NCBI GenBank assembly: GCA_964369125.1
Contig: CAYJEF010000001.1
Span: forward strand, 1-40,707
DNA: 40,707 nt
Reading direction: 5' to 3'
Source: an uncultured Christensenella sp.
Lineage (GTDB): Bacteria > Bacillota > Clostridia > Christensenellales > UBA1242
Shown: positions 6,777-40,579 of the stretch, piece after piece
How positions within the stretch are numbered: the stretch's first letter is position 1
Layout of the letters: each line of letters begins with the position of its first letter
Position numbers and translations under genes: made by a program
Notes under the pieces: model-generated
The model's input: the letters and a program-made list of their open reading frames with translations, nothing else
Database searches by the model: none
Told to the model about the DNA's origin: nothing

Positions 6777-6797
6777 GTTAATTTTGATACACTTTGA

Positions 6798-8132
<1,335 letters not shown>

Positions 8133-8173
8133 TAAAAATTTTGCAAGTTTCTTTACAAAAATTTTATAAAAAG

Positions 8174-8198
8174 GAAGTCAAAAATGGCTTCTTTTTTT
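8174..8198 (+). terminator. probable intrinsic terminator after eno
   Basis: The stem GAAGTC (8174-8179) pairs with GGCTTC (8186-8191) with one G-U pair. The loop is AAAAAT, followed by T7 (8192-8198). Confidence 0.5.
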
Positions 8199-8489
8199 GT
8201 GTTTTTTATAAGTAATTTTTATTATCTTTAAAATAATTTTTGCACAATTATTAAAAAAGAATATTGGCAAAGTTTTACACAAAATCTATGTTTAAATGTT
8301 TACAACTAAGCGTTGTTATTTGTGGACGAAATACAGACAAATTAACATTCGGTTACTTCTTAATTTTATATCTAATTTTACAATTCTACATTCAAAACCA
8401 CTCGTTCCCGACCAATCGTTCGAGAGTTAAAATCATATGATAAATATATTATAATAATCTTTGTAAAATGCTCGTTTTTGTTTGGGTGT

Positions 8490-8517
8490 TTTACATAAAT
8501 ATGCTACTATGTATATT
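8490..8517 (+). promoter_or_regulatory. candidate promoter of the giant gene (TTTACA-16 nt-TATATT)
   Basis: TTTACA lies at 8490-8495 and TATATT at 8512-8517. This is the most promoter-like of several AT-rich matches in the 458-nt intergenic region, so confidence is low. Confidence 0.3.
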
Positions 8518-8590
8518 GAATAATTATATTATATTCTAATACTGAAAATATTTTCAACTTCTGGCGGGAATAATACTTAGGAGGAAGTCA

Positions 8591-17500: not shown

Positions 17501-20500
17501 AACCCAGACAAGCAAGCACCATACAATCCAGAAATCACTCCACGAGTGGAAACGGCAGGAGGGAGCATAACATTCTATGCTATCTATCAACCTAGAACTT
17601 ACACTTTTAAATTTACTAGCAAACAGAGCCCAAATGACACCTTACTAGGCGGTTATAACAGCGAAATTGTTACAATAGTCGCAAATTTTGACGATGTAAT
17701 CTACTTTCCAGTGAAAAACGACGGGACTACTAACGGCACTACTATTGGAAGATGGTCGTTCCCTAGACAATCATTCTCTCATTGGTTAATTGGCTCTAAT
17801 AATTTTAGCCAAGGGTTTAAATTCACTGTAAATGTCCAAAACTTAAACAGCATAATAGGCAATTTTGAATCTCGCTCGGAAATAGAATTTTGCTCTGTGT
17901 GGGTTGATGCGGTTGTCGTGGTGAAAGTAAAACTCGGCGCAGGAGACATCTATGACTACATCGGCGACGAGAGTAAATATGACGTGGTGTTTGACGGTCA
18001 AAACACCTATCTTGTGTCTGAAAACGAAACACTTGGGCAACAATTTATTCTGCCAACATTGACCAACTACTACACCTTTGGCAAAAGCGCAGTGAGATAC
18101 ATTGACAAAGGCGGTGCGGAAATCCCAGTGGGCGTCAGCAGTGTAACTATCTCAAGTGAAAAGTTGGAAGCGGGACTCGACGCAAAGGGTAGGTTTGTAT
18201 ATATATTAACTCTCAGGTGGGAAAACGCCGAGTGTTATATCAAAGACTACTATGGCGTCGGGACAAATATACACTACTTTTTCTCAAAATTCGATAGCGC
18301 CATAAATTTCGTGGACGCAGACACTCTTTGTGCCACCGCACCAAATTATAATATTTTCATTCTATCCAATGCCGGCAATATTTCTTTGACAAAAGGCGTT
18401 ACGATAACTTCGGCGAAAAACTTGACGATTGCGCTTGATGCCACTGTTTCTGTTTCAGTAAACATTGTCAAACACTCCACATTTATTGGAAATAATATGT
18501 TTAATATCACCAGTGGCGGGTCTCTTTCAATAACCGCCGAGGGTTCAAAGGGAACGCTTGTGATAAGCGGAGCGTTTGCGACCAGCGGAGCGCTTATAAA
18601 ACTAACAAATGCCACGCTAAATCTCGGCAAAAATGTGACGCTTATAAACAGCAAAAATAATACAGAAGGCAAAGGTGGTGCCATAAACTCCATCAACAGC
18701 ACACTTAACATTAATGGCACGAGGTTTGAAAACAACTCCGCTCAACTAACCAACACAACTTCCTCGTATGGCGGGGCTATTTACGCCGAAAACTCACAAA
18801 TAACTGTCACACAAGGTGTGTTTTTGCAAAACAAAGCCAAAAGTCCAGCAGACGCATATGGCGGAGCAATTTATGTAACGGGTGGAACATTATCCATTTT
18901 GCTGGCACACTTCAAGCAAAACTCGGCGGACTATGATATTTCGGCTTCTTCTTATGGCGGGGCAGTGTATGCACAAGGCACAGAATTTAGTTGCACAAAC
19001 GCGTCAAGCACCATAATTTACGAGCAAAATTCGGCAAAAAATGGCTCTGCAATTTATCTCAAAAACTGTACAGACGCGGTCATTTCAAATGTTCACCTGC
19101 TAGAAAACGACAGTGTTGATGGCGGGATATATCTGTATAGTTCCACACTATATCTCTCAAATTCACTTGCTACATACAACACGGCGACTCGTGGCGCTGG
19201 TCTGTTTGTAAACAATTCAAATGTGTCCGTCACTTCTTGCGAATTTTCAAACAACACTAGTGTTTGTGGCGGGGCGATATACATTGAAAATGCAACGCTT
19301 ACCTCCACTGCCACTTTGTTTAACTCAAACTCTGCTCAAGGGACAGAAGTCCAAAGCGGTGACGGCGGAGCCATTTGTGCAATCGGCAGTTCTACCCTTA
19401 TAATAACGGGAAGTGTGTTTGAATTAAACTCTGCCACATATGGTGGCGCAATCTACACTGGTGGATCGACGGTTTTAACTATAAACAAAAATAATTTGAC
19501 CAAAAGCGCCTTTATTAGCAACACGGCCACCAATTCTGGTGGTGCGTTATACCTTGACTCGTCGGCGACAACATCTAGCATATTAAACGCAAAATTCTTA
19601 GAAAACAGCGCAACAAACGCCTCGGGTTCATCTACATATGGCGGAGCAATCTCGTTTAATAATGGTGAAACCACTTTAACAAGTGTCAGGCTTGTAGGCA
19701 ACAGCGCCACAAATGGCGGGGCAATGTTTATTTCGGGCGCGAAAGTCCGCGCGACATCAGTAGACACAATATATATATGTTATACGTTGGAAGACGGCAC
19801 GGTGATAGACAAAGAAGAATATTCCACAGGCAATCTTGTCTATGAAGGAGAGGGCGAAGAGAGCAGTCCACTTGAAGTAATAATCAAAGGAAACAATTCA
19901 GAATATGGCGGTGCATACTACGTCGCTTCGTCCGGCATTTTGTTACTGCTTAGTGGTGAAATTACTTCAAACGACGCAAAATCTTTTGGTGGCGCAATCT
20001 ACAACATTGGCACAATAACGATGACTGCACCAAACTTTGCGGAAAACACCGGGAACTCCATTGTCCACAATGTCGGCATTTTGGAAATCGTGGGGAATGC
20101 GACATTTGGCAATTCACAAACAATATATATAGATCAAAGAGAAGACACTTCCTACTACTATATAACCATAAATATAAACAACTACGACAATAATGGCGAA
20201 AAAATCTATTTAATGTTTGACCTCGTCGGCTATATTCTTAATATTCCTGTGGTAAAATTTACAAACACTACTTATTTTGAAAATTATAAGAATGGCTATA
20301 AAGTTTTTGAGGTCTACGACTCGTCCATTTTCCTCATCTCGCCAAGCAGGACTTCTGCGGATTTGGTGCTTTATCACCAAAACTATAAACTATATTTTAG
20401 CGATGTAAGTAAGGACGTAAACAAAATTACACTGCCTGAACATATAACCTTTGTGTATGATGAGTCTCTTTCGCAAGAATTCGTGGACCTTGTGAACACA

Positions 20501-23500
20501 TACTCCACACAGCGCACCGACTATGTCTTTAGAGGTTGGGCGTATTATTTCACAAACGCGGACAACAAAGGCTCTAGATCTATAGCCACAAACACTGAAA
20601 TATTCGAAATTATTGCTAATCCAAACAGCAACTATCGCTATTTCGAGACTTTGCTATCAGACTTTATTATGCCACCATATGACATCTATCTTTACGCTGT
20701 GTGGGAGGCAAATATCTATGAAATTTCGTATAAATACGACACATATTTAGGCGGTTCGGGCGACAGCAGTTACACCATATTTGGTCAACCAATTACGAAT
20801 GCAAGACTAGACAATTTAAAACAAAACCTCAAATATGGCACTCCCTTTACATTCCCAGCGTCCAGCAAACTAAATTCCTATTCTATAGTAGCACAGGCAC
20901 AAATAAACGACGCAAACCCAACAGATTTTACGAGTATAAAATCTCAAGTGCAGTTTGTGAACTCCGAGCGCGACCCATATGTCTATCCAAAGCAAATAAC
21001 ATATTTTGAGAACGACCAGACCATTTCTTGCGATGTCTATTCAAATGATGGCGTTTACTATTTCTATTGCGAAAGCGTTAAATATATCTTGCGCCAAAAT
21101 TATCGTCCAGACGGATATGTCCTAAATTATTATGAGATAAACGGGAGCAGATACACAACATATGGCAAGCAGTTTGAGATAAATGAAGCGTTTAGCGCCA
21201 ATATAAGCGACAAGAAGATTGTTATAACTCTCTACTACTCGCAAATTTCGCTAAACGTAGAAGTGAATTCAAACGGCGGAGAAGGTGATTTCATTATTGC
21301 AAACAACAAAGTGGGCGACGAGTTTTTGGTGCCATACAACAAATCCGTCACGAACTATTCCTCCTCTTTTGGAGCAATCTTCACGCAGTTTATATACAGG
21401 CAAAACCATGAACTTTTGGGATTTTCTAGAACTCAAGAGGACGCAAATAATGGCATAGTGGACTTCGCTCCCGGCGAGGCGTTTATAGTCACTGAACTTT
21501 CGCAAAATTCTATGATTATCTATGCTGTGTGGGGAACCGCGGTGTGCTTTGTGAAAGACGCGATAACCTTTAATGGAATAACAAAAGACATCTATTATAT
21601 GTCTCTAGATGAGGCTCTACTAGACGTCAACAATGCTTTGTATGCTCAAATAAACTCCACTATAATAATTATCGCCCAGAATGTCACACTTTCCTCGCCA
21701 ATAACAACAATGACAAATATTACAATCCTGCCAAATATCAGGGGAGTAGAGTTGACACTTGCGGGCAATTTTAGCACTACCGAAGCGTTTAAAGTAACAA
21801 ACTCATTTACGCTCACATTTGGGCAAAACGTCCCAGGAGATACCACTACTTTGACCCTAAGCGGGACGGGGACAGCAAGGGAACGAAGCGCAATAAACGT
21901 TGCGCTAGGTGGCAAATTAGTGTTAAATCAAAATGTCATTGCTCGCGACTGGCTTATCACATCGGGTCTTGCATCAAGCTATGGCGCGTTTGCTACAATA
22001 AGCGGTGACCTTGACATTAACGGCGCAAAATTCTTTGGAAACACTGCCATAAACGGCGGGGCACTACACGTGGCAAATGGTGGCAAAGTCACCATAAATT
22101 CTGCGGTGTTTGGCGGGGCTGGCGCCGAGAAGAATTCGGCAACAAAAGGCGGGGCTATATACCTGTCTGTCGGTGGTGGAATTACCATAAATTCTTGCTC
22201 GTTCATATACAACTCTGCCACAAATGGTGGCGCAATATATGTGGCGAACAACGCAAACTATTTTAATGTTTTGTCTGCGGAGTTTTCTAGCAACACCGCT
22301 TCAAACGGTGGTGGAGCATTATTCACAGCAAATGCCATAAGCCTTGGCGAAAGTAGCAGCAGTCATATTACTTTTACCGCGAACTCCGCTCTATCCGGAG
22401 GGGCAATCTATACCGAAAACAGTTTGACCGTTGCATATAACGTGTTCTTTTCTTCAAACCAAGCCACAAATGGAGGTGCCATATATTCCACGGCGTCTTT
22501 GGACATTTTATGCGCAAAATTTGTGGGAAACATTGCGACGACAAACGGCGGTGCAATCTACATTTCGGGCGCAAATATTTTGTCAATCAGTTCTAATAAC
22601 GCTACAAGTGACATTTCTCAAACGCTTTTGTCGTCAAACGGCGCTACATTCGGCGGGGCTATATATAGTAACGGCGCAAACGCAACCATTTCAAACGTGC
22701 TTTTGTCTGGTAACTATGCCGAGACTGGCGGTGCTATTTGCGTGCAAAACGGCACAGTGACGCTGACTGCGCTTGCAGAAATCTACGCAAACGGCAAGCG
22801 TGGCGACGTTGTCGTGACTAAATATGGCGGTGGCGTGGCAACACTTGAAAATGCAACACTTATGGTTAGTGGCAAAATCAGCGGGAACTTTACTTCCATT
22901 AGCGGTGGTGGCGTGTATGCCAAAGACACTTCCAAAATAGTTTTGAAAGAAACCGCGCTAATATCTCAAAACACTTCAAGCGTGAATGGTGGCGGTGTGT
23001 ATCTTGGTGGCGGTAGCAGAATAACAATGAACGGCACCATTTCAAATAATGTTGCGACAATTTCGGGCGGTGGAATTTATCATACGTCCAGCAATGCTCA
23101 AAGCGAATTTATCTATGGTTTGATAGAAAATAATCGTGCAAACTTCGGCGGGGCACTGTATCTATCTAACCTTGAATTTGACGCCGCGGTGACCCTAAAA
23201 GGAACAATATTCTCAGGAAACACTGCAACAAACACAATGTCAAACGAAATTTATGTTCAAGACGACACAAAACTGACGATAACTTCTTCCACAATTCTTG
23301 GCAACATTTATGTCACGTCGTCATATCAGACGGAATTTGTGCAACTGGAACTGGACGTTGCGGCAGTGGTGGACAAAGTTTTTCTCACGCGATATTCCTT
23401 TATAAACGTTCTTAACGAACTGCGAGCATACATAACCGCAAACGACGAAATGAAGATTAAAATCGTGCTAGCGGACTCAGCCACTTTGTATAAAAACAAT

Positions 23501-26500
23501 GTTCTGGAAAACAAAATTCTTGTAACTTTCAGCAACAATCTTGAACTTCTCACAAAAAACAAAGACTTCTTCACCCTCGAAATCGGAAACGATGAATTTG
23601 GCTCACCAATAAAGGGCTACGCGCTTTATGCCAACGAGGACCCAAACAAGAACTGTTTGCAAGTGAAAGAAGCCGCCGACCACATCAATATAAATCCAAG
23701 TGGTGGCACGCTTATTTACACAAATCCTCTTACAGACGAGCAAACTTTCTATACCTCAACGTTTACCCTAAGTCTTAAAGAAGATAGTGAAACGACACTG
23801 AAAATCCTTGAAAATATCACGGGCGAACGCTTAGGTTACCAATTGAAATCTGGCGAATATCTATATAGGAAAGACGCGACAACCATAATAAAATACAATT
23901 CTAGCAACAACAAACCAATACTTGGAATAACCCTTGAAGCGCAGTGGGAAGAACTCGAATTCACGGTCTACACTGTCGACGCAAGCACACAAACGCAGAC
24001 GGAATATGGCAAATATAAATATTCTCAGCGTGTTACTTTAAACACCCCTTCTCTCAACCACTATCGCTTTGTAAATTGGGAAGTTGCCTATAAAAATAAC
24101 GGCGTTTTGACGCAAACGGGCATATATTTTAATTCGTCAAATTTTGCTGACGGCAAGTTTAGGTTCTCTTTGCTCTCAAGCGACAACCTTGTTCCAAATA
24201 AAGAATACACATACAATGAAATTTACGCCGAAATCATAAGTAATGATATGGAAATTTATTTTGTGCCAATCTTCGTGCCAAAAGTGGTGTATATCAAAGT
24301 CTATGCCAACACTGGAAGCATTAGGGAAATACTCTCGACGCAGACGCAAAATTATAACCCAGAAATTTACAGCGACTATATTATATACACCATAAATCAA
24401 TATCAACTCTATGTTAATTACAACGAATTTTCCTATGACTTTATGCTCGCAGACCACGCAATCGTCGGGCTATACACTGATATGGACGTAGACGGTTACA
24501 CCGAGGGCACGGACGTAATGTATAGAGACTCAAACAAAAATCCATCAATCAGCGTGTTTGGGCTTCGCGACGAGGAAGTTATCTCTCTTTATTGTTATTG
24601 GCAAGAAGTTATCGCATATATTGTGAAAGCAGGAACGCAGGAGCAGGAATATTTCGACTCTATTTACACTGCAGTTACCTCACTTTCAGACGGCGACGAA
24701 CTGGTGCTGGTGAAAAAATCCATTTCTATAAACAAACCCCTGACATTCAGCGCAAATGTAACAATTTCGTCCACCGATAATATAGTCATTTCGCGTGCCT
24801 CGGTTTTCAGCGGGAATATGCTAAACATTTCAAGCAACGTGACGTTTAGACCTGAGTTTACGATAACTATTGACGGGGTGAAGAGCCAACACACAACGGG
24901 TTATAGCGGAATTTATGTGAATAACGGGAGTACGCTAACATTAAACTCCAACGTAAAAGTAATAAATCACGGGAGCACTTCACAGGGCGCTGGCATCTAT
25001 TCCAAAGGCAGTGTCATCTTAAACGGCGCCGAGATTTCAAACAATACGTCTTCAAGACAAGGCGGTGGAATTTATTCCGTTGGAACGCTGACTATAAACG
25101 TTGGCACTAAAATCACCGGCAACACCGCAAATTTCGGCGGTGGCGTGTATATCGCCGAAGATGCTTCTAGTTTCGTTATGTTGGGCGGTCAAGTGAACGC
25201 AAACACGGCAACTCAGGGCGGTGGCATATATTTTGCCAGCAAACTCTCAGGCGTCATTTTGAGCGGAGAAATTTCAAATAACAACGTTAGTTATGTCGGC
25301 GCAAGCAACTATTATGGCGGTGGCATTTACATCGCCCTCAACAGTGGACTTCTTACCTTTGGTGACACATCTAGCAACTTTCCAACCATTTCAAGCAACA
25401 AATCCCACTATGGCGGTGGCATTTACGTCCACGGCAACGACGCCAGCAACGCTGATTATAATGTGCTTATAAACAACATTTTAATCTCGCAAAACGAGGC
25501 GACGTATGGCGGTGGCATTTGTATTGGCGACAACACCACTTCCGCCAGCAACCACACCGTGCTTATGCAGGGTGGCGAAATAATAAACAATCGCACCGCT
25601 ACATATGGCGGAGGATTATATATCGTGCGCGGAAAATTCGAAATCCGTGGTGGCGAAATCTCTGGGAACAAACTCCCTTCGGACATAACATATAGAAACA
25701 TATATATTGGCGCTCAAAATGCGACAAGCGTTGGCATCGTCAGAATATATGGTGGCACGATAGGAAGCGCGAATGACGGCGGGAAGATTTACATCGATCG
25801 CACTTTATCAAAGGCGGGACAACTGCACTTTGGCGGAATAAGTGGCACGACACTTACCATGAATGACCATATCGACCTTGTGCAGAATATGTATGTCAAT
25901 ATTTTAAGCCCACTAAATTCGGGCGTTGTCATAACCATTGAACCTCGCACCGTATTGCAAAATAATAGTGACAAATTCCTCGTCGCAGTGTTTGCAAATA
26001 ACATTGTCGCCACCGACGCAATATTCTTCATTGACGATGACGACAGTCGTTTTAGAGTATTTGGTCAAGAAATATATGTAACAAAGGCAATCTTTAGCCT
26101 CTATCTAGACCCAACTTTTGGCATAATTTCCGACAATGGGCTTGTGGGTTTTGATTATGTCATCGAGAACAACATTTGGATTGTTCAAGTCCCAAATTTG
26201 AGACCGTTAAAAGATATTCTTGATAAGATAATCGTACGCGCCACAAACCGCGACTTCATTTCGTGGCTGGTGGGTGGCACGCCAGTTGCGCTTGACGTGG
26301 AAAACGCCACTATGTCCAAAGCCGACCTTACGCTATTGTGTTCGTGGACAGACATCTATCGCACGCTGACAATAGACCTGAACCACACCAAAGGAAGCAG
26401 CGGTGAGCGCGCAGTTTTGAGCAATACATCGCCAATCTATCCTTATTACAGCCAAGCCACAAACACAGTTACCCTAAAAGTTTTTGTGGGTGGACAACTG

Positions 26501-29500
26501 ACAAAAGAGGGGCATAGCGCGCTTCTTGACCTAATCGGCAACGCACAGAGTCCATATTTAACACGAAATGGCTATCAATTTGCATCGTTTAACATTTCTC
26601 AACTAGGCACCGGCGCAAATTATGAATTGGCGGATATTTTTGAAATGCCAGATAGCGACCTTGTTTTATATGTATTGTGGGAGCCTAAAGAGTTCACTAT
26701 CGTTTACCACGCGAATAAACCTGTGGGCGCTTCGGACACGGCAACACTTATCGACCAAAGCGTAACTTGCAATTTTGACACCTTCGTAATTATTTCCTAT
26801 AGTGATATATTCTCTATAACGGGCTGGAAATTCTATAACTGGAACACATCTGCCGACGGCACAGGCACGAATTTTGCTTTTGGCACGAAATACAATTTTG
26901 CATATAACGCCAGCACAACTCTTGACTTATATGCCATTTGGACCCCAAACACATACACCATAAAATATGACGCGGGCGACAATTCTTCTCAAGTCACAAA
27001 CACTTTCAGTGACAGCACAACATATACCTATGACACACAAAGAACTTTGCCAACGGGTTCTTTCACCGCAGTTGGATATACGCAAACAGGTTGGAGTGAC
27101 GACTTTGGCAACAATTTCACATTTGGTCAAGCCGTTAGTAATCTTACGACAGAGGGAGAATTAACACTCTATGCCGTGTGGACGCCAGTCACCATAAAAG
27201 TGTTCTTCCACAGGTCAGGGGCAAGCGACGCCAGCATATACGACGTTACGTTTGCATATGCCGACACAGAACATAACACTCTGCCTCTCGTGAACACAAT
27301 TCCTGGAATAGACACCAGTTACCGTGTGTTCAAAGGTTGGAGTCGTTCCCCATACAGCGTTTGGAAGACGGCGAAAGCGACCTTCATCGACGGCGCAGAT
27401 ATTTCTTCACACTTAACCTCGGGCGACATTCATCTATACCCAATCTGGGCACCATATTCTGCCACAATTCATAGCAACACCACGGGCGAAACCTTTAGAA
27501 CCTATGAAGTGGATAGTAACGGCGAAGTGGAACTCACCTTAACGGAACTCGCGAGTAGATTTAGCAGACTAGGCTTTGAGATTGATTATTTGTCTAACAC
27601 TTCAAACCTTGCAAATTCAACCAGCACATATATGTTCACAAACGGCAGTCTCGTCATTGATTTTGCAATGCTCGGCAGTACACTCGACTTATATATTGCT
27701 TGGAAAGCAGTGACATACACGGTGGAATTTGTGGCAGGGGACATCACCCTTGATGACAAATTAGTCACCACCACGCCAGACGGCACCTCGTTTGCCTCGG
27801 TCGGCGACATTTTAAGCATCACGCTTTATGGCTCAGACGATATAGGAGACACATTCGAGGGTTGGTCGTTTGACGAGCAGTTGTCCACATTCGACGCAGA
27901 ATTGTCACAAACTTTCATGCTAACGTATGACATTCTGGAAAAAATAGCCAACTATCAAACGCTGTCAAACAACACAATCACAATATATGCGCTCTCAACC
28001 ATAACATATAAAATAACTTATGACTTAAACGCCGACGGTCACAACGTCATAAACGCCAGCACGTCGGAAATTTTGTCAAACGGCACGAATATTACAAGCG
28101 ACATTAGCATAAACGACACCGCAAACATTGTCTTTGCGGACAAAATGGGCAAAGTGTGGGAGATTGCGGACATTCAAACGAGTAATGTAAATTCCCGCTA
28201 TGCCTATTTCCTCGGCTGGGCAGAGGACGCAAGTGCGAGCGTGCCAACATACTCTCCTCTTGGGATTTCAACGGCGCGTTTTGCCAAAGACATTACGCTC
28301 TATGCCGTTTGGCAAGATTACACCAATCCATTCTATTTTAATTACACTAATTCGGCAATTACGGGACTAAGCGCTATTGGCGTCAGCAACCTCAGCGCAA
28401 ACGCCAGCATAGTTTTGCCACATCACGCGCTAACCCTCTCGGGCGGGACGCTCACCATTGGCGAAACAATAACTTCGGTAGGGTTTGCACAAAATAATGG
28501 AAACAGCAATATTATTTCGCTTGACTTCTCTCTTTCTACGGCAGTTACGACTCTTCCAGAGTTAGCCTTTGTCAACCTTTCGAATTTGACTTCTGTCACA
28601 AATTTGCCAGTAAATGTGAATATTGCAAACGGAGCGCTATCAAGCAAAAATCTTTCTGAAATTACCTTTATAGGCGCACAAAACAAATATTATTTTGACA
28701 CGGACGGCAATATGTATGTTATCGCGAGCGGTGTCGCCGAACTTCACACGGCACTGGTAAAGATTTCGCTATCGGTCGATGAATTTATTTTGAAAGGCAC
28801 TGTCAACCTATCTGGCACGAACTACACTATCTCAAAACTACAAAAATATGCGCTTTACAACACCGAATATGTGTTTATAACAATTCCAAACTCCGTCACC
28901 GAGATTGCGGGTAGCGCCTTTATGCAAACCGAGTATTTGGTCAACCTTACTGTTCCATTCGTGGGCAAAAATCAAACCGAGAACACCTCTCTTGCCTTTG
29001 TGTTTGGTGGCGCGGATAACGTGCCGTCGTCGCTTAAAAAAGTTACTGTAACAAACCAAACGGAAGTAAAAGCGGGAGCGTTTAAAGATTGCAATGACAT
29101 AACGACCGTCATTTACACAAGTGGCACAGTCACAGTTGTGAACGACGACGCCTTTAATGGTTGTGCCTCGCTTATGCTAACAGGACGAGCGGGCGAATTG
29201 AACCTTGAGTCTCTTGAAACAGTTGGTAACAACGCCTTTAACGGTTGCGTTAGTATAGAAAGTCAAATTAATCTTGCCAGTATAATTACTCTTGGCGATA
29301 ACGCTTTTAGTGGCACAAACATTCAATTTGTGGAAATTAACCGCAACGCACAAAACGTCAGCAACCTTGCCTTTGCAGGTGTCACGACGCTCACGCAAGC
29401 GCGTGTGTTTAGTTTAATCGCCTTTGACGCAGTCATCACAAACACGGGAATCTTCAAAATGCTTAGCGATAACTTCACTAGCGACCAGACAATTTTCGTT

Positions 29501-32500
29501 TCAGCCCATTTCTTCTCCATAATAAATCGCGAAGAAAACGCAGAATATTTGGAATATAATATCGTTGTCGAAGATATGATAGAAGTGTTTAACGCAAACA
29601 AGGATTTTGTGTCTAACCACGCTAGCCTTGAAAGCGCAATTCAAAGCGCACAGCGTGGCGACTATGTTGTAGTCAAATATTGTGAAATTCTAACTAGCAG
29701 TATACTGATAAACAAAGACATAACAATTTTTTCTGCATACGACCAACTTGACTCCGAGAACGAAGCCGCAAACGACTATAACAACAGAACTGTAACGCTT
29801 TCTCGCGACGCCACACTTGCTGGCAATGTGTTCCTCATAAATTCAAACAACGTGACGTTTGGCTATTCTGGCACGTTTAAAGACTACAAAGTTGTGGCAT
29901 TAAATATCGTCGGCAACAATGACGCAAACAGTTCCAGTTTCTTCTCCGTCATAGGTGGCGGTTTGACATTAAGTGGAAACGTAAATATTACAGGGAACCA
30001 AGCGAAAACGGGCTCTGTTGCATTCATTTCCGACGCTCAAGTGGTCGTGAATGGCGCAAAAATCTATGGCAACAAGGCGGTAGAAGAAGGCGCTAATCAA
30101 AACACTGGCAACGGCGGAGTGTTCTATCTTGCCACAAAATCCACTCTTGATATTATCTCTGGCGAAATTTATGACAACACTGCCACGCGTGGTGGCGTTG
30201 CATATTCAGTAGGTCACAGCATAATATCAATCAATGGTAGCAATGCGGACGCCGTGAAAATCTACGAAAACTCCGCCAAAGAGGGCGGTGTGCTTTACAT
30301 TGCTTCCACAATTCTTGACGAATCCGCCACAAACTATGTGGGAAGATCCAAAATTTATAACAACAGCCCAGAGAACTACACAAACTCGTTTGGTGGTGCG
30401 TTCACCATTGCTGGCGGTATGCTCAAAATTACTGACGGCGCAGAGGTGTATGGCAATTCGTCCGGCAACGGTGGGGCAGTCGCGGTAAAGAGTGGCATTT
30501 TAATCATCGGTTCGGCAACCATAGGCGGGAGTTCTTCCGCTCAAGCAAACTCCGCTCTTTCATACGGCACCTCGCAAGGCAACAAGGGTGGCGGTATTTA
30601 CGTGGGCGATAACGGTATTCTAAGAGTAACCGCAGGAGCACTCATTTCGAACAATCAAGCACGATTTGGTGGCAACATCTACTTTGGCGCGACTACAGGC
30701 GGATATGCTTCCATCATTTCAGGTGGCGTAATCTCTTATGGCAACAGTCTTGTGAGTCTAAGCAACAGCACAAACCACTATGGTGGAGGCATTTACGCAA
30801 CAGGCGGTGTTCTAAACATATATAATTGCACCATTTCAAACAACCTCGCGGGCTATGGCGCAGGCATCTACACCATTTCTACAACTCTCTTTGTTAATTA
30901 TGGCACGTTATTTAATGGCAACGACGCAGGTAAGGACGGAGGAGGGTTATTTGTCGCAAAATCCGCGAGCACAAAAATAATTACAATAGACGGCGCGACG
31001 TTTAGAAACAACTATGCAACCACGAATGGTGGTGCTGTGGCAGTGGTCGGCGACGAAGTCGACATTCTCTGCTCCACCATTTCAACCTATATCGGCGTCA
31101 AAAACGACGTATTATACGCTAGCGAGCGTTATAAGGGCGGGAATAATGCAGGTGTTAACGGTGGCGGACTATATATCGCAGGCGAAGGCAAAGTTAATAT
31201 CCTTGGCGCCAGCAACATTCAAAACAACCAGTCAAACACTGGCGCTGGCATATACTTCTATAATGGCGGACTTATTCTAAAAGGCGCTAACATTTCATAC
31301 AACACTGCGACCACCAGGGGTGGTGGACTTTATGTCAGCGACGGCATCGGCGACGGATACAGGAGTAATGGTGCGTTTTTAAGTGTGTTTGAAATCTACG
31401 ACAACGCGACATTCTCGTTAAACACTGCACAAGACGGAGCAGGACTATATTTAGACAACAGGCAAATAGCAATTTCCAGCGCGCGTTTCACTTCAAACAC
31501 TGCACAAAAATCAAACGAAACAAACGGCAAAGGTGGCGCAATATTTGTTAGCAGTGGCGCAGTTTTGACACTTGACGACGTTAGAATAGAGCAAAATATA
31601 TCCACAAACTCTGTTGCATATTCGGGAATATACCTAAACAGCACTTCGCCAAATGCTTTACAAATAACAAATATGCTTCATATGCAAGTGTCAAGAAGTA
31701 TTGCAACGGGCGCCGACACCTCAAACCCAATCTATCTCATATATGGCGCGACGATTATGGTCACAGACAAATTTGTTAGTGGCAGACCAATAAAAATATA
31801 TATGGAACAGGTTTTAGAGGTTAACGAACGTGTGCTTATTGCGCGATTTAATAGCAGAGATGACGCTTCTAGCGCGAAATTTACCGCCGAAGAAATCGTG
31901 TTTATGCAACAAAACGAAAACATCTACGCCGCACAAGCAACTGTGAAAGATTACACGAGCAATGTTTACTATGCTTCCATAAACGACGCCGTCTCCCAAA
32001 CTACGGCGCAAAAACTATATCTAATGCTCCTAAGAGACCAATACATTACGTCTAGTATGACTATTGAAATCCCGCAGGGTAGGGAAGTTGTCATAGTCTC
32101 GCGCCCACGCGAAGATAACGCGACACTGGGCTACAAGATTTACAGGCAGTTTGATGAGCAAGACAAAAACACAGGAACGCTCTTCAATGTTCGTGGCACC
32201 CTTACTATATATTTGGCAAACAGCGATTACAGTTCGTATAGTTCTGCCGAGTTTTATGGCGTTCCAGTCGTCATCGACGGTCAAAGTAACAATCAAACCT
32301 CAGAAATTTGCTCATCTCTTGTCCAAATCTACAAAAATGGCACTCTTAATGTAAATTCGATGGCATATCTCATAAACAACCGCGCGCAAAATGGAGGAGC
32401 AGTTTACGTAGGTGCAAACGAGACTTTAATGGCGGGCGATATTTCTGCCACATTAAACCTTAATGGTGGCAATATATTCAACAATTCTGCCGCCAAAAAC

Positions 32501-35500
32501 GCCAGCAATGTGGGCGGGAACGGCGGTGCTATTTATGTATATTATGGTCAAGTGAACCTAAACAGTGGCACGCTTGGAAAATATGACACGGCGACGTCCA
32601 GTTATTCTGGCAACACAGCAGTGGCGGGCGGTGCAGTTTATATTTCAAACGGCAATTTAACTGCTGGCGAAATGGTAATTGAAGGTAACACTGCGGACAA
32701 AGGCGGAGCAATTTACGTCCACAATCAGGGTACTGTGCAAATGACCAAAACCACTGTTAGAAACAACAACGCCACCACGGCAGGTGGAGCGCTTTGCCTC
32801 TATTCCACAGTTCAAACTTCGGGCGGTGAATATGTCCTTAGTGGCGTGACTTTCACGAATAATATTTCAGCAAACGGTGGCGCGATATACCTATATTATG
32901 GGCTTCTAGTTTTGGGCGATCACACAGGGCAAAGTTTGATAACTTCTTCGCGCTTTACATTAAACTCTGCGACGACTTATGGCGGGGCAATCACAGTTGA
33001 CGGCTATGGCATTATAAAAGCCACAAACGCAGAGTTTACAAATAACACAGCGGGAACCAGCGGTGGAGCGATATTCTTCGGGGCAAACTTTGTTAATAGG
33101 ACAAACGAAGCGGAATCGAATAGCGTTTTGTCACAGGTCCATATCGGCGGAGCAAGCGCAGGAAACACAGCAACTTCCGGCGGTGGAATCTACGTGGCAA
33201 AGGGGCAACTTATTATCAATCAAAATTCTACAGTCAGCCACAACATCGCAACATTTGGCGGAGGACTATTCGTGGGTGACGAGGGGTCTGTTGCCATAAC
33301 AAACAGCACCCTAAGATACAACTTTGCAGACAAGGGCGGGGCAATAATGTTTGCATCGCAGTCCAGCGTCAGCAGTCTCGAATTGTACGGTGTAACAATT
33401 TCAAACAACAACGCAACCGCAACAGGCGCCTCCGTTGGCGGTGGCATCTACGTCGCCGAGAACGCTCTTGGATTAATTGTCACAAACGAAATGATTTCGG
33501 GCGAAAATAGGGTGAAAACAACCATAACGAACAACACTGCAAACTCGGGCGGGGCGGGGTTGTATGTCGCTGGAGGTGAAGTGAAATTGCAAAACACGCT
33601 TGTAACTTCCAATACAACGACAAACGAAACGGGCGCAGGGCTTTTTGTCACGGGAGGCTCGGTCGTGCTCCAAGACGCCACTGTGTCTAATAACATTACA
33701 AACAGACAAGACAAAACGGGTAGCAATATTTACTTCTTTGGTGGCAACATTCGCCTATTTGGCGACAACACGATTTCAAGCACCACCTCGGGCTTTTCCG
33801 GCATAATGCTTGGCAGTATAACCACCACACTCTCTCGCTTCACACTCTCGGGCTCAATCGACAACATTATGGACAGTATATATTTGTCGTCAAACCGCAC
33901 ATATATAGTAGTCAAAGAAGACTCCAGCACGACTTCCACGGTGAAACTAACGCGCACGAACGCCACGAAAACAGTTCGCATCGAACTCTTTATGGACAAA
34001 TCGGCGTCCTTCCACCATGAGTTTGGCAACACGGTCGTTATGTTCGACAGCGCTGTGCTCGCCGAGCAAAAGACACAATATTTCTCGACGTCGCTTGAGA
34101 GTCAATTCCTTCTCAAACAAAGTAGCGACCCAAGCAACTCTTTCTGCACGGTGTTAATTCCGCAATATTTTGAGGAAATTAACACGAATGGCGTCATCGT
34201 TGGAGCATACTACACCTTGCAAGAAGCGGTAAACAAAGTAACAAACGGCAATATAATTCTAATAAACATTGCGGACAAAACAGAAGAAAACAGAGTTTAT
34301 TATGTGTCTTCCACCATTGTCACGCCAGACACGAACAAAAATATTATTATTTCCGCACGCTTAGCAAACACAAAAATTATGCGCGGAATAAATTCCGACG
34401 GCACAGATTTTGCTGGAAATATCTTTAATGTGTCCGCTAGCGACAGCGTCTATTTCGGCGTTCATTCATTGTGGAACAGTGTCTATTCAATCTATTGCAC
34501 AGAGGGTTTTGCCGACTTCACCCTTTCGTTTATTGGCGGTAAGTATTCGTCAACTGCAAGTGATAGCATAAATTCAAGCGCGCATATTCTGCAAAACTCC
34601 GGCATCTTAACGCTTGGGAAGGGCGTAGAAATTACAAACGAACACACCACGGCGAACGGTTCCGCCGTTATGTCCACAGCCGGCGCTTTAAACATAATAA
34701 ACGCCACAATCTTTAACAACTTTGCAAAAGAGGCGGAGGACAACAGCGCTAAAGGTGGTGCAATATTTGCTAGTAACACCGCAGTCGTAATCTTAAACAG
34801 CGTTCTTTACAAAAACTCCTCCGATTTAGGCGGGGCTATTTATGTGCAAAATGGAACGCTTCAAATCTCATACAGCACGATTGGAGGCACTGACAGTGTC
34901 CTTGCCACAGAAGAAACCGCGTCTGCCAACATTGCAAGAAACGGCGGAGCAATTTACTCGGCGGGTTCGACCGTGACTCTGCTCACTGGAGCACTTATCT
35001 CGCAAAACTTCGCTACATTGTGTGGCGGAGGGCTCTATCTTACGTCCTATCTATTACCAAATGGCACTTTTGCTTCATCAAAACTTATTTTGAACGATGG
35101 CGAAATTTCCTACAACTACGCCGTGAACTTTGGCGGTGGCGTCTATGTAGAGGACAACTTCACGTCAGTTCCAAGCGAAAGTGCAACCAGCGCAGAAATC
35201 GAAACATTCTTTAATTCTCGCGTAAACTTGCAACAAAACGGTGGGCAAATATCACACAACACGGCAGGAAATAACGGCGGTGGCGTGTATGCCACAAGTT
35301 TTGTGCTAAGTAATGGCACAAAAACTTTTGGTGGAACAACCATTGTGACTGTAAGTGGAGTAGAAAGAAAAGTCTATGGCGTGGCGGTGAAAATTGCCGG
35401 CGGAGCAATAAATTACAACTTTACACAGAGCGCCACAAGCATGGGCGGTGGCGTCTATCTCGACGGTGCAGAGTTTGTGATAGCAGGGGGCGAAATCAGC

Positions 35501-38500
35501 CACAACAGCGCGTCACTTTCGGGTGGCGGAATGTATTATGTGAGTTCCAGTGTAAAAATCTTTGACAATACGTTAATAATTTTGAACATCGCTGGCGCTA
35601 TGGGTGGCGGGATATATTCTGGCGCCGATTCGGTGACAAATATCGGGCTTATTGACAGCACAAACATTAGCATTTCGGGCAACAGTGTCACCGAGAGCGA
35701 TAGTTATGGCGGTGGCATCTATATGGCATATTCGTCCAAACTCACCATTCAATCCGCCACCATTTCGGGAAACAGTGTGAATGTAGTCAGCGGACTTGGC
35801 AGTGCAATCTACGTGGACAGCAGAACAGCGGGCGACTTCACAATAGGCAGTGGACTTGACTCAAACGGCAATATTACTACGCTGTCTCATAACCTTGTCA
35901 TTACGTCCACAGGCAGTGGTGCAAACAGCGTGTATCTATATAACGGCAGTCAAATTCATATCAACGCCGAATACAGATATTCCGGCACTCCAAACGAATC
36001 AATCGACATTACTTGCGCATACGTCTCCACCAATTACAATAGAGTTATAGCGTTCTTCTCGCAAGACGCGCGCCAAGCGAATATAGACGAGAGTTTGTTT
36101 GTTGGCAAAGACAAATTCGGCAGTGCCTATTGCTTCGTGTTAACCGAAACGCGCGAAGTTGTCATCAGTCAGCGCAATGTAGCACGCGTCAATAACGGCG
36201 TCGTCAGGTTCTTCACGAGCCTAGAAAGTGCCGTGTCCAATATCGACGTCGACAGTCCAGACGAAACATTCATTATCCTTTTAAACAACATTATTGTTAC
36301 AAATGCAATGACCATTTCAAATGCAAACAAAGTGACCATAAAATCTGGCGACATTTCGTCTACCTATGAAATTCTTGAGGTCGGCAGTCCATTCACAATT
36401 TCGCGCCACCAATATGATTTTGACACAAAGATTTTTGAAATATCGTCAAAATCTCTTGCGGGCTCAATGGTAAATATCGAGTTTGTAAACTTTGCAAGTG
36501 CAGGCGTCTCGTCCAGTCTCAGTCAAATTGTTGTCACAGGTGGCACCGTCAATGTCTCACAAGTAAATTTCACAAATCTCTTTGGTGGCGGATCGGCAGT
36601 TGAGGCGACGGGTGGGAGTTTGAATATTTCAGACGTCAACATCTCTTTAAGCAGTGCGGGCAATGGGCTTATTTCTGTATTAGGTTCCGCAAGTGCCACG
36701 ATAACAAATTCCACAATCACAGGCGACAGCGCAAACACGGTGACGAACGGTGCGCTATACGTAAATACCACAGGCACGGTCAATGTGGATAACACTATAA
36801 TAACGGGCATAATTGCCACGAATAACGGCGGGGCAGTTAATCTTCAAAATGGCACGCTAAACTACACAATGACCTCGTTTGACACCCCTGCAATTTATGG
36901 AAACACAGCACAAAACGGCGGTGGCATCTATATTTCAGGTGGAAACATAAACTTCACGAACATTAAAATTAGCGGAAACACGGCAGTGAATGGCGGTGGC
37001 GTCTACGTAGAGACTGGCACCATAACCATAGAAAACGCAAAAATTATGAGCAACACGGCAACAAACGGCGGTGGCGTGTTTGTGAACACTTTTGCAAGCC
37101 TTACTTTAAAAGCGGACGTAACAAACAACGAACAAGCGTCGCTTGGCGGTGGCGTTTACAGCGCGGGGGATCTCACTCTCGCGGGGACTTATATTGCTTC
37201 AAACTCTGCCGAAAGCGGTGGTGGCGTTTACATTGCGTCAGGTCAATTTACGACCTCTTTGGTGGAGGGAGTAAGCGCTCGCATCACTTCAAACACAGCC
37301 AGTAGTTTTGGTGGTGGAATATATCTAAAATCTATCGCAACTCTTGGACACTCGCTGGAAGTAACCTCAAACACGGCACTAAACGGGGGTGGTGTGTGCG
37401 TCGAAAACACGTCTGTCACAATAAACGGTGCGGTCATTTCGCAAAACTTTGCTACAGGTTCGCAAACTGGCAGTGCTGGCGGTGGCGTATATCTTCGTTC
37501 TGGGCAACTTTATCTCACTTCTGGACAAATCACAGGAAACACTGCGCTCTCCACGGACACAAGCACCGGCAGCGGCGGCGGAATATATGTAGCGTCTGGC
37601 GAATTTACGCTAAACGGCACTTACGAAATATCTGAGAACACTGCCAAATTGGGCGGAGGAATATTTCACTCCTCGGGGTCCATAAACTTTACCAGTGGCG
37701 TTATCGGCTCCGAGACAAATGTTCTAGCGACTAGTGAAAACAATTCCAACTCTGCCGATTATGGTGGCGGAATTTACGTTAGTTCGGGTATGCTAACCAT
37801 AATCGGTGGCAAAGTGCAAAACTGCTACGCGACCTATGGCGGTGGCATCTACGTTGCTGGCGGAACAATATCAATTCGCGCTGTCGAAGTATCTTATTGC
37901 TCGGCAGAAGAGGGTGGCGCAATTTATTACAACAAGGACGACGAGCAAATTGTCCTAACCGAAATAAACCTCATCAGTAACATTGCGGAAAATGGTGGCG
38001 GATTGTATGTGAACTCTACAAGTGTCATCACTTTGTATAATTCAAATGTCAGCGCAAACGAAGCGCAAGCAGGTGGCGGAGTGTTTGTTTATAAAGGCAC
38101 TTTAAAACTCGACGGACCAAACTCAATTATTGGCACCATAACTGCTTTGGGCGCAAACACAGCAGACAACGGTGGTGGCGTATATGTGGACGCTCTTGGA
38201 AAGTTACTCGTCGTGGACGGCAAAATTTCTAACAACACGGCGGACAATGGCGGTGGCGTATATGTTGCCTCAGGCGACTTTGGCACTCTTGGCAGTATTG
38301 AAATGACGCTCGGAGAAATATCCGGTAATAATGCAATAAACGGCGGTGGCATATATAGCCAAGGCAGGTTCAGGTTAATATCGGGCACTTTGACAGCGAA
38401 CAATGCCACAAACGGCGGTGGCATATACTTCGCAGGCGGTGTGACAGAAGAAATATCAAACATCGAAATATTCTTGAACAATGCTACAAACGGTGGCGGT

Positions 38501-40579: not shown

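What the first reader, a model, noticed from the sequence alone, without database searches (positions are those of the whole stretch)
18233..40294. Seven paralogous beta-helix modules with a shared N-cap/C-cap grammar; composite [Flg_new array + beta-helix] units appear to have been duplicated as blocks
Each glycine-motif region is a complete module, not merely a run of repeats.

Shared N-cap. All seven modules start with the same cap of about 50 aa:
- hydrophobic-x-[VI]-[KN]-...-[YF]-[YF]-x-[ST]-[LIF]-x-x-A-[VIL]-...-short beta strands-...-[IV]-T-I-x-S
- M1 (18233): CYIKDY..HYFFSKFDSAINFV
- M2 (about 21545): CFVKDA..IYYMSLDEALLDV
- M3 (about 24611): AYIVKAG..EYFDSIYTAVTSL
- M4 (about 29576): IEVFNANKDFVSNHASLESAIQSA
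- M5 (about 31940): TVKDYTSNVYYASINDAVSQT
- M6 (about 34175): EINTNG..AYYTLQEAVNKV
- M7 (about 36185): ARVNNGVVRFFTSLESAVSNI

Shared C-cap. All modules end in a related non-glycine region of the form ...I-x-I-...-V-x-x-F-...-F-x-L.

Conserved junctions. For modules 1-3 the boundary with the preceding Flg_new array is itself conserved:
- ..LRWENAECYIKD
- ..YAVWGTAVCFVKD
- ..YCYWQEVIAYIVK

This suggests that array-plus-helix units were duplicated together. Modules 4-7 are instead fused head to tail over about 10.7 kb with no spacer.

The N-cap resembles the generic cap of pectate-lyase-like right-handed beta-helices. Seven complete capped helices concatenated in one polypeptide is unusual.
Basis: partly seen in the sequence, partly recalled or inferred. 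Interest (0 to 1): 0.8.

Follow-up and report, generated by a model that had tools for sequence, protein, structure and literature searches.

The report
Giant surface protein, seven beta-helix modules
One 10,662-residue, membrane-anchored surface protein of a Christensenellales-like gut-type Clostridia bacterium carries seven separate Pmp-type beta-helix rods, each with the same N-terminal cap; this layout is real and conserved in relatives, but it is a common design in this protein family, not an oddity.

Summary
The region lies in a single ORF (8591-40579, 10,662 aa). It has an Asn/Gln-rich N-terminus, one TM helix, Flg_new arrays, a BspA-type LRR block and seven clusters of GGxIY/[F,I]xxN rungs (Chlam_PMP/TIGR01376).

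- **Seven modules:** confirmed at the stated coordinates.
- **Shared N-cap:** confirmed. Leave-one-out HMMs recover it 7/7. An HMM built only from foreign single-module proteins ranks six of the seven caps as its top hits. hhalign links six caps at >=90%. AlphaFold2 gives a confident strand-helix-strand cap starting exactly at the predicted boundary for M3 and M5.
- **Shared C-cap:** not demonstrated. Leave-one-out fails, hhalign reaches at most 22%, and pLDDT is below 50.
- **Block duplication of [Flg_new array + helix]:** not supported. The Flg_new units ahead of each module are not each other's closest relatives, and there are no DNA-level repeats.
- **"Unusual":** not supported. 97 of the 149 best database relatives have at least two helix clusters (maximum nine), and two have seven caps head to tail.
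- **Orthologues:** fragments at 26-57% identity, with conserved synteny in two Christensenellales-type MAGs, keep the same module order and similar rung counts.

Verdict: a new member of a known kind, most likely an adhesin-like surface fibre. Interest is modest.

The parts
8591..40579 (+). Single giant ORF, 10,662 aa. AGGAGG lies 8 nt upstream of the ATG, and a terminator-like hairpin follows enolase at 8168-8197.
8591..9055 (+). N-terminal Asn/Gln/Pro-rich low-complexity segment (aa 1-155), inferred to be cytoplasmic. It ends in KPKRKK.
   Evidence: DNA repeats 8702-8937
9059..9124 (+). The protein's only transmembrane helix (aa 157-178), read as a signal-anchor.
   Evidence: Kyte-Doolittle scan
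9158..18226 (+). First array of Flg_new / InlB-B-repeat-like units (aa ~190-3212); many units are divergent.
   Evidence: Pfam PF09479; in-house unit HMM
18233..20410 (+). Module M1 (aa 3215-3940). N-cap 18233-18610. 12 GGA-type rungs (motifs at aa 3362-3800). Non-glycine C-region.
   Evidence: orthologous cap in L001/L002
20411..21532 (+). Flg_new spacer array 2 (aa 3941-4314).
21545..23695 (+). Module M2 (aa 4319-5035). N-cap plus 15 rungs with motifs at aa 4489-4853.
23696..24601 (+). Flg_new spacer array 3 (aa 5036-5337).
24611..26125 (+). Module M3 (aa 5341-5845). AlphaFold2 is confident for aa 5337 to ~5735. Cap = strands 5342-45 and 5352-55, then helix 5358-63. The C-region 5745-5845 is unresolved.
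26126..28360 (+). Flg_new array 4 (aa 5846-6590), including four very regular units at aa 5921-6286.
28361..29569 (+). BspA-type leucine-rich repeat block (LRR_5). Best Pfam stretch is aa 6746-6861.
29576..31939 (+). Module M4 (aa 6996-7783). The cap follows the LRR block. 15 rungs.
31940..34174 (+). Module M5 (aa 7784-8528). AlphaFold2 is confident for aa ~7789-8410. Cap = strand 7792-94, then helix 7797-7803.
34175..36184 (+). Module M6 (aa 8529-9198). 11 rungs. Its cap has the weakest sequence support.
   Evidence: M4-M6 90.8%; missed
36185..40294 (+). Module M7 (aa 9199-10568). One cap, then about 38 GGG-type rungs with no internal cap.
40295..40576 (+). Trp/Tyr-rich C-terminal tail (aa 10569-10662). 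No LPXTG motif and no TM helix.

Best explanation
The interval is the distal two thirds of one giant cell-surface protein of a Christensenellales-related Clostridia bacterium.

**Export and anchoring (inferred).** The protein is exported by Sec. It stays tethered by a single N-terminal signal-anchor helix, with the Asn/Gln-rich head in the cytoplasm. About 10,480 residues are therefore displayed outside the cell.

**Extracellular architecture (shown).** The exposed part alternates two kinds of element:
- flexible chains of small Flg_new (InlB-B-repeat) domains, plus one BspA-type LRR block;
- seven rigid right-handed beta-helix rods of the Pmp type.

In each rod, every ~25-30-residue rung buries a [F/I]xxN motif against a GG[A/G][I/V]Y motif. 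Each rod is a self-contained folding unit that opens with a homologous ~100-residue cap (strand, short helix, strands) sealing the N-terminal end. Each rod then runs out through a few glycine-free rungs into a module-specific C-terminal region.

**Origin (inferred).** The seven modules are ancient paralogues or recombined members of a widespread capped-helix domain family. Rungs expanded within modules. The number and order of modules, and roughly their rung counts, were fixed before the divergence of relatives that are now only 26-31% identical.

**Function (inferred, not shown).** The protein most likely acts as a long adhesin or spacer fibre. It would present variable loops on the helix faces, together with the LRR block, to ligands on host, food-particle or partner-microbe surfaces.
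For: **Architecture**
- One ORF with a Shine-Dalgarno sequence and an upstream terminator.
- A single TM helix at aa 157-178 preceded by KPKRKK, and no other hydrophobic segment of comparable strength.
- Pfam Flg_new, Chlam_PMP and LRR_5, and NCBIfam TIGR01376.
- Seven motif clusters with 25-35-aa spacing; 107 of 126 GG motifs have a [FILVMY]xxN within 16 residues upstream, mostly at 8-9.

**Fold**
- AlphaFold2 gives long, confident all-beta solenoids for M5 and M3.
- All Foldseek PDB matches are right-handed beta-helices: Ag43, rhombotarget A, PfbA, PL6 lyases, AlgG and tailspikes.
- Paired FxxN/GGA motifs are described as buried rung-forming elements, also outside Chlamydia, in PMC10715098.

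**Caps**
-.

**Reality and age of the gene**
- Conserved synteny (small-MDR-export protein, MBL, typA at 79.5% identity, enolase at 73%), followed by a colinear giant ORF in two MAGs.
- Colinear orthologue fragments P0122 (57.5%), P0125 (31%), P0131 (30%) and P0123 (26.5%) have the same module order and similar GG counts: 12 / 15-16 / 6-8 / 14-16 / 12-14 / 8-11 / 38.
- Every region is 51-67% identical to P0122, the C-regions included, so none is a junk linker.
- No long DNA repeats, which argues against misassembly.

**Context**
- Clostridia proteins of 10-30 kaa with Listeria-Bacteroides repeats and LRRs, interpreted as adhesion proteins, are noted in bioRxiv 10.1101/2023.11.21.568195.
Against: - Function is purely inferred. 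No ligand, expression or localisation data exist.
- The Foldseek matches are weak (best E = 0.0036-0.011, none at or below 0.001) and include many polysaccharide lyases and tailspikes, so an enzymatic role for some modules is not excluded.
- The C-terminal regions and all inter-module junctions were predicted with pLDDT below 50. It is therefore unknown whether the helices are independently capped at the C-end or stack on the next cap.
- The M5 and M6 caps have weaker sequence support than the others.
- No cell-wall anchoring motif was found, and the role of the Trp-rich tail is unknown.
- Organism assignment rests on 73-80% identity of two housekeeping proteins to MAGs labelled Christensenellales or Clostridia.
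Confidence: 0.72

Rival explanations
1. Some or all of the beta-helix modules are carbohydrate-active enzymes (lyase, epimerase or depolymerase, as in PL6 lyases, AlgG or phage tailspikes). On this reading the giant protein is a multi-catalytic glycan-processing fibre, not a passive adhesin.
For: - Foldseek lists PL6 alginate lyases, AlgG/AlgE4 epimerases, polygalacturonases and tailspike depolymerases among the best PDB matches.
- Several sequence homologues carry Pfam Beta_helix or NosD annotations.
Against: - All those matches are generic, with E >= 0.0036 and TM-scores of 0.1-0.4.
- No CAZy-type Pfam or NCBIfam family is hit. The only helix families found are Chlam_PMP and TIGR01376.
- No PDB sequence relative was found.
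- The rungs are the highly regular Pmp type, in which the conserved motifs are buried structural elements (PMC10715098).
- Non-catalytic adhesins (Ag43, PfbA, rhombotarget A) match equally well.
Confidence: 0.12
2. The three upstream units arose: tandem duplication of a composite [Flg_new array + capped helix] block. Later divergence erased the similarity of the arrays.
For: - The M1 and M2 caps start with the same W-x-x-A-x-C-[YF]-[IV] junction, and this motif is kept in their orthologues.
- The M1-M2-M3 caps are mutually similar (hhalign 81-96%; SW z 4.7-7.5).
- The last units before M1 and M2 are in the top ~3% of window comparisons.
Against: - With orthologue-enriched profiles, the pre-module units rank only 4th-24th of 24 against each other.
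- The 300-aa upstream arrays show no in-register colinear match. M1-M2 gives z=1.1 and M2-M3 z=0.4. M1-M3 gives z=4.8 but is out of register.
- The M4 cap, preceded by LRR, is as close to M2/M3 as they are to each other.
- M3's rungs are GGG-type and closest to M7.
- The junction motif is largely the generic Flg_new terminus plus the first strand of the cap.
Confidence: 0.15
3. M4-M7 are not four independent domains. They form one quasi-continuous rod in which each 'C-region' and the following 'cap' are merely irregular rungs or a kink.
For: - There is no spacer between these modules.
- Beta strands continue about 60 residues past the last GG motif in both models.
- The junction regions are conserved in orthologues at the same level as the rest of the protein.
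Against: - The M5 cap contains an alpha-helix and has the same strand-helix-strand layout as the M3 cap and as the N-termini of single-module proteins, which follow a signal peptide.
- AlphaFold2 confidence rises abruptly at the cap start, although the thin alignment over the flanks contributes to this.
- The external-cap HMM recognises the M5 and M7 caps.
Confidence: 0.2

Closest known systems
Chlamydial polymorphic membrane proteins (Pmp; Pfam PF02415 Chlam_PMP repeat, TIGR01376 POMP_repeat)
   Same: - Repeated, paired FxxN-like and GGA(I/L/V)-like tetrapeptides with a period of ~25-30 residues.
- Predicted to form regular right-handed beta-helix rungs with the motifs buried.
- Pfam and NCBIfam hits above cut-off (PMC10715098).
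   Different: - No autotransporter beta-barrel and no Pmp middle domain.
- A monoderm-type N-terminal membrane anchor.
- Seven helices in one chain, interleaved with Flg_new and LRR domains.
- Many rungs use GGG[IV]Y and [I/V]xxN in place of GGA/FxxN.
- It shares the repeat, not the protein family.
Non-chlamydial single-module 'predicted outer membrane repeat' / InlB B-repeat-containing proteins of Clostridia, Treponema, Bacteroidales and methanogenic archaea
   Same: - The same domain unit: signal peptide, then the same N-cap (V.n..eL..AI..a..g..v.I.L..dItL...ltI...k.itL.s), then Pmp-type rungs.
- Often combined with Flg_new repeats.
- 28-36% identity to M3.
   Different: - They have one module and are 400-900 aa long.
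- The cap follows a signal peptide, not another domain.
- They share no similarity with the C-regions of the window's modules.
Multi-module relatives in metagenomes (e.g. P0156 and P0189 with seven caps; P0132 and P0137 with 8-9 helix clusters), and the orthologue fragments P0122, P0123, P0125 and P0131
   Same: - Several capped Pmp-type helices in one polypeptide, head to tail or separated by other domains.
- The orthologues have the same order M1...M7 and similar rung counts.
   Different: - The non-orthologous proteins are shorter (2.7-4.5 kaa) and have short modules of about 300-400 aa.
- None is characterised or named beyond 'hypothetical', 'leucine-rich repeat protein' or 'predicted outer membrane repeat protein'.
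Large (10-30 kaa) Clostridia gut proteins with Listeria-Bacteroides repeats and LRRs, noted by West-Roberts et al. (bioRxiv 10.1101/2023.11.21.568195)
   Same: The same size class, taxon and domain vocabulary, with adhesion as the proposed role.
   Different: That survey does not describe capped Pmp-type helix modules or this gene family specifically.
Solved beta-helix adhesins and surface proteins: E. coli antigen 43 (7ko9), S. pneumoniae PfbA (4mr0), rhombotarget A (9cdv)
   Same: A right-handed parallel beta-helix fold. These are among the best Foldseek matches.
   Different: - The matches are weak (E ~0.01-0.1, TM 0.1-0.36).
- There is no sequence relationship.
- Anchoring and secretion differ.

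Membership tests
Pmp-type beta-helix repeat (Pfam PF02415 / TIGR01376) | Hits to the repeat models above the curated cut-off | tested here: met
   - PF02415: 77.8 bits against a cut-off of 20.6, for aa 3150-7050.
- TIGR01376: 28.7 and 16.5 bits against a cut-off of 15, for M5 and M3.
- Caveat: Pfam returned nothing for aa 6950-10662, and NCBIfam nothing for M7, despite dozens of motifs.
Pmp-type beta-helix repeat (Pfam PF02415 / TIGR01376) | Paired FxxN-like and GGA(I/L/V)-like motifs recurring once per ~25-30-residue rung | tested here: met
   - 126 GG-type motifs in the modules versus 1 outside.
- 107 have a [FILVMY]xxN within 16 residues upstream, mostly at 8-9.
- Spacing is mostly 24-35 aa.
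Pmp-type beta-helix repeat (Pfam PF02415 / TIGR01376) | Predicted right-handed beta-helix formed by the repeats | tested here: met
   - AlphaFold2 pLDDT is 80-98 over aa 7789-8410 and 5337-5735, and these stretches are all-beta.
- Foldseek hits are exclusively right-handed beta-helices.
Chlamydial Pmp autotransporter family (type V secretion) | C-terminal autotransporter beta-barrel and Pmp middle domain | tested here: not met
   - The Pfam scan of the whole protein shows no autotransporter or ChlamPMP_M domain.
- The protein ends in a 94-aa Trp-rich tail.
- The anchor is an N-terminal TM helix.
Pectate-lyase-like right-handed beta-helix superfamily (generic N-terminal cap) | N-terminal capping element (amphipathic helix or strand-helix) closing the helix end | tested here: met
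   - DSSP on the models gives strand, 6-7-residue helix, then strands at the very start of the confident domain in M3 and M5.
- No Pfam family covers the cap.
- 3D packing of the cap could not be inspected.
Pectate-lyase-like right-handed beta-helix superfamily (enzymes) | Catalytic residues or membership of a CAZy lyase or hydrolase family | tested here: not met
   - No such Pfam or NCBIfam hit.
- No PDB sequence hit.
- Structural matches are only generic.
Flg_new / Listeria-Bacteroides repeat (PF09479, TIGR02543) | Hit to the model, with repeated ~70-100-aa units ending in [LIV][YF]AxW | tested here: met
   - PF09479: 73.1 bits against a cut-off of 27.
- More than 20 units were recovered by an in-house iterative HMM.
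BspA-type LRR (PF13306 LRR_5) | Hit above cut-off | tested here: met
   64.9 bits against a cut-off of 27.7; best stretch is aa 6746-6861.
LPXTG sortase-anchored Gram-positive adhesins (MSCRAMM-like) | C-terminal LPXTG motif, hydrophobic segment and a positively charged tail | tested here: not met
   No LPXTG motif or hydrophobic segment in the C-terminal tail (read); the single strong hydrophobic segment is N-terminal.
   - Leave-one-out HMMs fail in two designs.
- hhalign reaches at most 22.4%. This is above the 2.2% control but not significant.

The most novel reading that the evidence does not exclude
The number, order and approximate rung count of the seven helices, and the gene's position downstream of enolase, are conserved across relatives that have diverged to 26-31% identity. 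This could mean the protein is a length-calibrated, multi-ligand surface fibre that is a lineage-defining organelle of Christensenellales-like bacteria. One possible role is co-aggregation with partner microbes such as methanogens, whose own surface proteins carry the same capped module. In that reading the lineage-specific C-regions would be inter-module hinges or docking elements of a new type.
Probability: 0.1. Interest if true: 0.6.

Novelty: new member of a known kind. Interest (0 to 1): 0.3.

Why it matters
The finding gives a clean domain grammar for an uncharacterised but widespread surface-protein family: cap, then Pmp-type rungs, then a variable C-region.

It shows that the cap is a reliable marker of module starts, and no Pfam model currently covers it. 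Standard annotation misses a third of this protein: a Pfam scan returned nothing for M4-M7.

It also documents a roughly 10-11 kaa surface protein with a conserved architecture in a gut-associated Clostridia lineage. That helps anyone studying adhesion or aggregation in Christensenellales, or annotating giant genes.

It does not reveal a new mechanism.

Tried and rejected
- **Pairwise BLAST with composition correction.** Only marginal cap similarities (E 4e-4 to 0.04), so I moved to profile tests.
- **C-cap tests.** Tried in two window definitions, against external homologues, and with orthologue-enriched profile-profile comparison. All were negative or weak.
- **Junction construct for AlphaFold2 (alignment A2).** Abandoned because MAFFT aligned rungs across the junction and left the caps covered by only 9-20 rows. 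The second job went to M3 with its flanks.
- **First AlphaFold2 job.** Left both junctions at pLDDT below 50.
- **PDB sequence search with M3.** Nothing.
- **Pfam scan of the seven caps.** No family found.
- **Exact look-up of the enolase.** Not on record.
- **Two metagenome-contig scans** (M4/M5 junction; M1 junction alignment). No relatives found.
- **Word-indexed homologue search with the N-terminal region.** Only one fragment found.
- **Iterative Flg_new HMM.** It drifted into M2 (unit 4612-4728); that unit was discarded.
- **Search for a super-period inside M7.** No clear period found.
- **Misassembly or recent duplication.** Rejected because DNA repeats are limited to the ~50-nt motif at 60-78% identity.
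Full report
**1. What is there**

The finding's interval (18233-40294) lies wholly inside one open reading frame, 8591-40579 on the + strand, encoding 10,662 aa.

- **Gene signals.** The ORF has an AGGAGG Shine-Dalgarno sequence 8 nt before the ATG and promoter-like hexamers upstream. A terminator-like hairpin follows the preceding enolase gene.
- **Upstream genes.** These are a nucleotidyl-transferase, a small-multidrug-export protein, an MBL-fold protein, typA/bipA and enolase.
- **N-terminus.** The protein starts with 155 residues rich in Asn, Pro and Gln. Then comes KPKRKK and the only strong hydrophobic segment in the protein, aa 157-178. I read this as a signal-anchor that leaves about 10,480 residues outside the cell. 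This topology is inferred.
- **Domain families.** Pfam and NCBIfam detect Flg_new (PF09479), Chlam_PMP (PF02415), TIGR01376 and one BspA-type LRR_5 block.

**2. The seven modules**

GG[AG][ILV]-type motifs occur 126 times inside the seven proposed modules and once in the remaining 5,047 aa. They form exactly seven clusters, with spacing mostly 24-35 residues. In 107 of 126 cases a [FILVMY]xxN lies within 16 residues upstream, mostly at 8-9.

This is the paired FxxN/GGA rung signature described for Pmp-type beta-helices, including non-chlamydial ones (PMC10715098).

A self dot-plot shows all seven cores cross-matching.

**3. The N-cap**

Simple pairwise statistics are only partly convincing: Smith-Waterman z reaches 7.5 for some pairs and about 0 for others, and BLAST E-values are marginal. 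Profile tests are clear.

| Test | Result |
|---|---|
| Leave-one-out HMM from six caps | Omitted cap is the best hit in the whole 10,662-aa protein in 7/7 cases, above 21 decoy giants (4.5-11 bits) |
| HMM from the N-termini of nine external single-module homologues only | Six best hits are the caps of M7 (23 bits), M5, M2, M3, M4 and M1, all above the best decoy; M6 is missed |
| hhalign with orthologue-enriched profiles | Links M1, M2, M3, M4, M6 and M7 at 90-99% probability; M5 reaches 32%; cap-versus-C-region controls reach at most 2.2% |
| Position of the motif in single-module homologues | It follows the signal peptide directly |
| AlphaFold2 | Confident from aa 5337 (pLDDT 85-98), with strands 5342-45 and 5352-55 then helix 5358-63 in M3; equivalent strand 7792-94 and helix 7797-7803 in M5 |

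Foldseek against the PDB returns only right-handed parallel beta-helices, although weakly (best E 0.0036-0.011). No Pfam model covers the cap.

**4. The C-cap**

All modules do end in a glycine-free stretch. In both models the strands continue for roughly 60 residues past the last GG motif, and confidence then collapses.

- Homology among the seven C-regions is not demonstrable. Leave-one-out fails with two different window definitions.
- External homologues share nothing beyond the last rungs.
- hhalign peaks at 22% (M3-M4), then 17% (M2-M3) and 7-8% (M2-M6, M4-M6).
- The C-regions are nonetheless conserved between orthologues: 54-58% identity to P0122, like the rest of the protein.

They are therefore structured but largely module-specific. 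At most, M2, M3, M4 and M6 share a faint resemblance.

**5. Block duplication**

- **Junction.** The motif (..W-x2-4-[AC]-[YF]-[IV]..) is conserved within each module across orthologues, and M1 and M2 share W-x-x-A-x-C-[YF]. However, it consists of the generic Flg_new terminus plus the first strand of the cap.
- **Pre-module Flg_new units.** The units preceding M1, M2 and M3 are not each other's nearest relatives. They rank 4th-24th of 24 with orthologue-enriched profiles. In window-based tests only pre-M1/pre-M2 reach the top 3%.
- **Upstream arrays.** They are not colinear.
- **Rung types.** They cut across the proposed grouping: M1, M2 and M5 are GGA-type, while M3, M4, M6 and M7 are GGG-type. 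Rungs are more alike within a module than between modules.
- **M4 cap.** It follows the LRR block but is as close to the M2/M3 caps as they are to each other.
- **External relatives.** Some caps (M4, M3) match external proteins as well as or better than paralogues.
- **DNA level.** Only the ~50-nt motif repeats, at 60-78% identity.

Any duplications are therefore ancient, and their unit cannot be shown to include the arrays. Clear colinear multi-unit duplications do exist inside the Flg_new arrays, for example aa ~800-1100 versus ~5900-6200.

**6. Relatives**

- **Syntenic MAGs.** A genome scan found two MAGs, an uncultured Clostridia bacterium and a Christensenellales bacterium, with the same gene order. 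typA is 79.5% identical and enolase 73%. Both have a giant ORF that is colinear with ours over aa 154-3890 at 25.5% identity before the fetched locus ends.
- **First helix in those MAGs.** It has the cap and the KWVEAECY junction, and is the reciprocal best match of M1.
- **Exhaustive search with M3.** It found 14,494 proteins at E <= 1e-3. Among them are colinear orthologue fragments:

| Fragment | Identity | Giant residues covered |
|---|---|---|
| P0122 | 57.5% | 5390-7772 |
| P0125 | 31% | 156-6296 |
| P0131 | 30% | 3798-7410 |
| P0123 | 26.5% | 5157-10488 |

- **Conserved layout.** Together the fragments show the same order, M1-M2-M3-[Flg_new, LRR]-M4-M5-M6-M7. GG-motif counts (orthologues / this window):

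| Module | Orthologue(s) | This window |
|---|---|---|
| M1 | 12 | 12 |
| M2 | 15-16 | 15 |
| M3 | 6-8 | 8 |
| M4 | 14-16 | 15 |
| M5 | 12 | 14 |
| M6 | 8 | 11 |
| M7 | 38 | 38 |

- **Implication.** The architecture is old and maintained. This also rules out an assembly artefact.

**7. How unusual**

Of the 149 best representatives, 97 have at least two helix clusters, 37 have at least four, and the maximum is nine. P0156 (2,830 aa) and P0189 (2,686 aa) each carry seven strong cap hits (15-50 bits) head to tail.

The ranking favours long repetitive proteins, so these are not population frequencies. They do show that concatenated capped helices are a recurrent design.

Large Clostridia gut proteins of 10-30 kaa with Listeria-Bacteroides repeats and LRRs have already been noted and interpreted as adhesion proteins (bioRxiv 10.1101/2023.11.21.568195).

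**8. Mechanism and verdict**

- **Shown:** the domain grammar, the cap homology, the beta-helix prediction, and the conservation of architecture.
- **Inferred:** Sec export with an N-terminal anchor; rods alternating with flexible Flg_new chains to form a fibre; an adhesive function through helix-face loops and the LRR block.
- **Length estimate:** from my own arithmetic, about 170 rungs x 0.48 nm gives roughly 80 nm of helix, plus the Flg_new chains. This is an estimate, not a result.
- **Not excluded:** enzymatic activity of some modules, or end-to-end stacking of M4-M7 into one rod.

The protein shares the Pmp repeat but fails the defining features of chlamydial Pmp autotransporters (no barrel, no middle domain). 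It also fails those of LPXTG adhesins.

Overall it is a new member of a known kind.

Noticed in passing
window 29438-40576 (aa 6950-10662): A Pfam scan of this 3,713-aa piece returned no family at E<=0.01, although it holds about 78 Pmp-type motifs. NCBIfam likewise found nothing for M7. Automated annotation would therefore leave M4-M7 blank, probably because of HMMER's bias and composition filters on a 19-residue repeat model.
   Followed up: partly
window 8591-9055 (aa 1-155); DNA repeats at 8702-8937: The N-terminal, presumably cytoplasmic head is Asn/Gln/Pro-rich, with three imperfect copies of a ~62-nt unit encoding ..NQNF[AT]RPN... The L001 orthologue has a similar low-complexity head before its TM helix.
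   Followed up: no
window 40295-40576 (aa 10569-10662): A Trp/Tyr-rich C-terminal tail with no LPXTG motif and no TM helix. It is weakly similar (SW z=4.7, motif YVN.Y..YLQ.W) to P0123 aa 5860-5909. P0123 continues about 230 aa further and ends with a hydrophobic, Gly/Ala/Val-rich segment that this protein lacks.
   Followed up: partly
window 28361-29569 (aa ~6591-6993): One BspA-type LRR_5 block sits immediately upstream of M4. It is conserved in orthologues (56% identity to P0122; P0131 is annotated 'leucine-rich repeat protein').
   Followed up: partly
window ~10990-11890 versus ~26290-27190 (aa ~800-1100 versus ~5900-6200); also aa ~2300-2600 versus ~6100-6400: Colinear multi-unit similarity between distant parts of the Flg_new arrays (50-70 bits per window). 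This suggests that blocks of several Flg_new units were duplicated, independently of the helix modules.
   Followed up: partly
P0125 (orthologue, 6,502 aa, on a 218-kb JGI contig): Its ORF ends at a position equivalent to about aa 6330 of this protein, inside the Flg_new array before the LRR block, even though the contig is long. This is either a real split of the giant gene into two ORFs in that organism, or a frameshift or sequencing error.
   Followed up: no
window 1947-8132; L001 and L002 1-7900: The gene order small-MDR-export protein, MBL-fold protein, typA/bipA, enolase, giant gene is conserved in two MAGs labelled Clostridia/Christensenellales. typA is 79.5% identical and enolase 73%, whereas the giant protein is only about 25% identical, so the surface protein evolves much faster than its neighbours.
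   Followed up: yes
window 2846-2864 and 4899-4918: Short overlaps between consecutive upstream ORFs. The 230-aa ORF is called with a TTG start that overlaps the preceding gene by 19 nt, and typA overlaps the MBL gene by 20 nt. This suggests translational coupling or mis-called starts.
   Followed up: no
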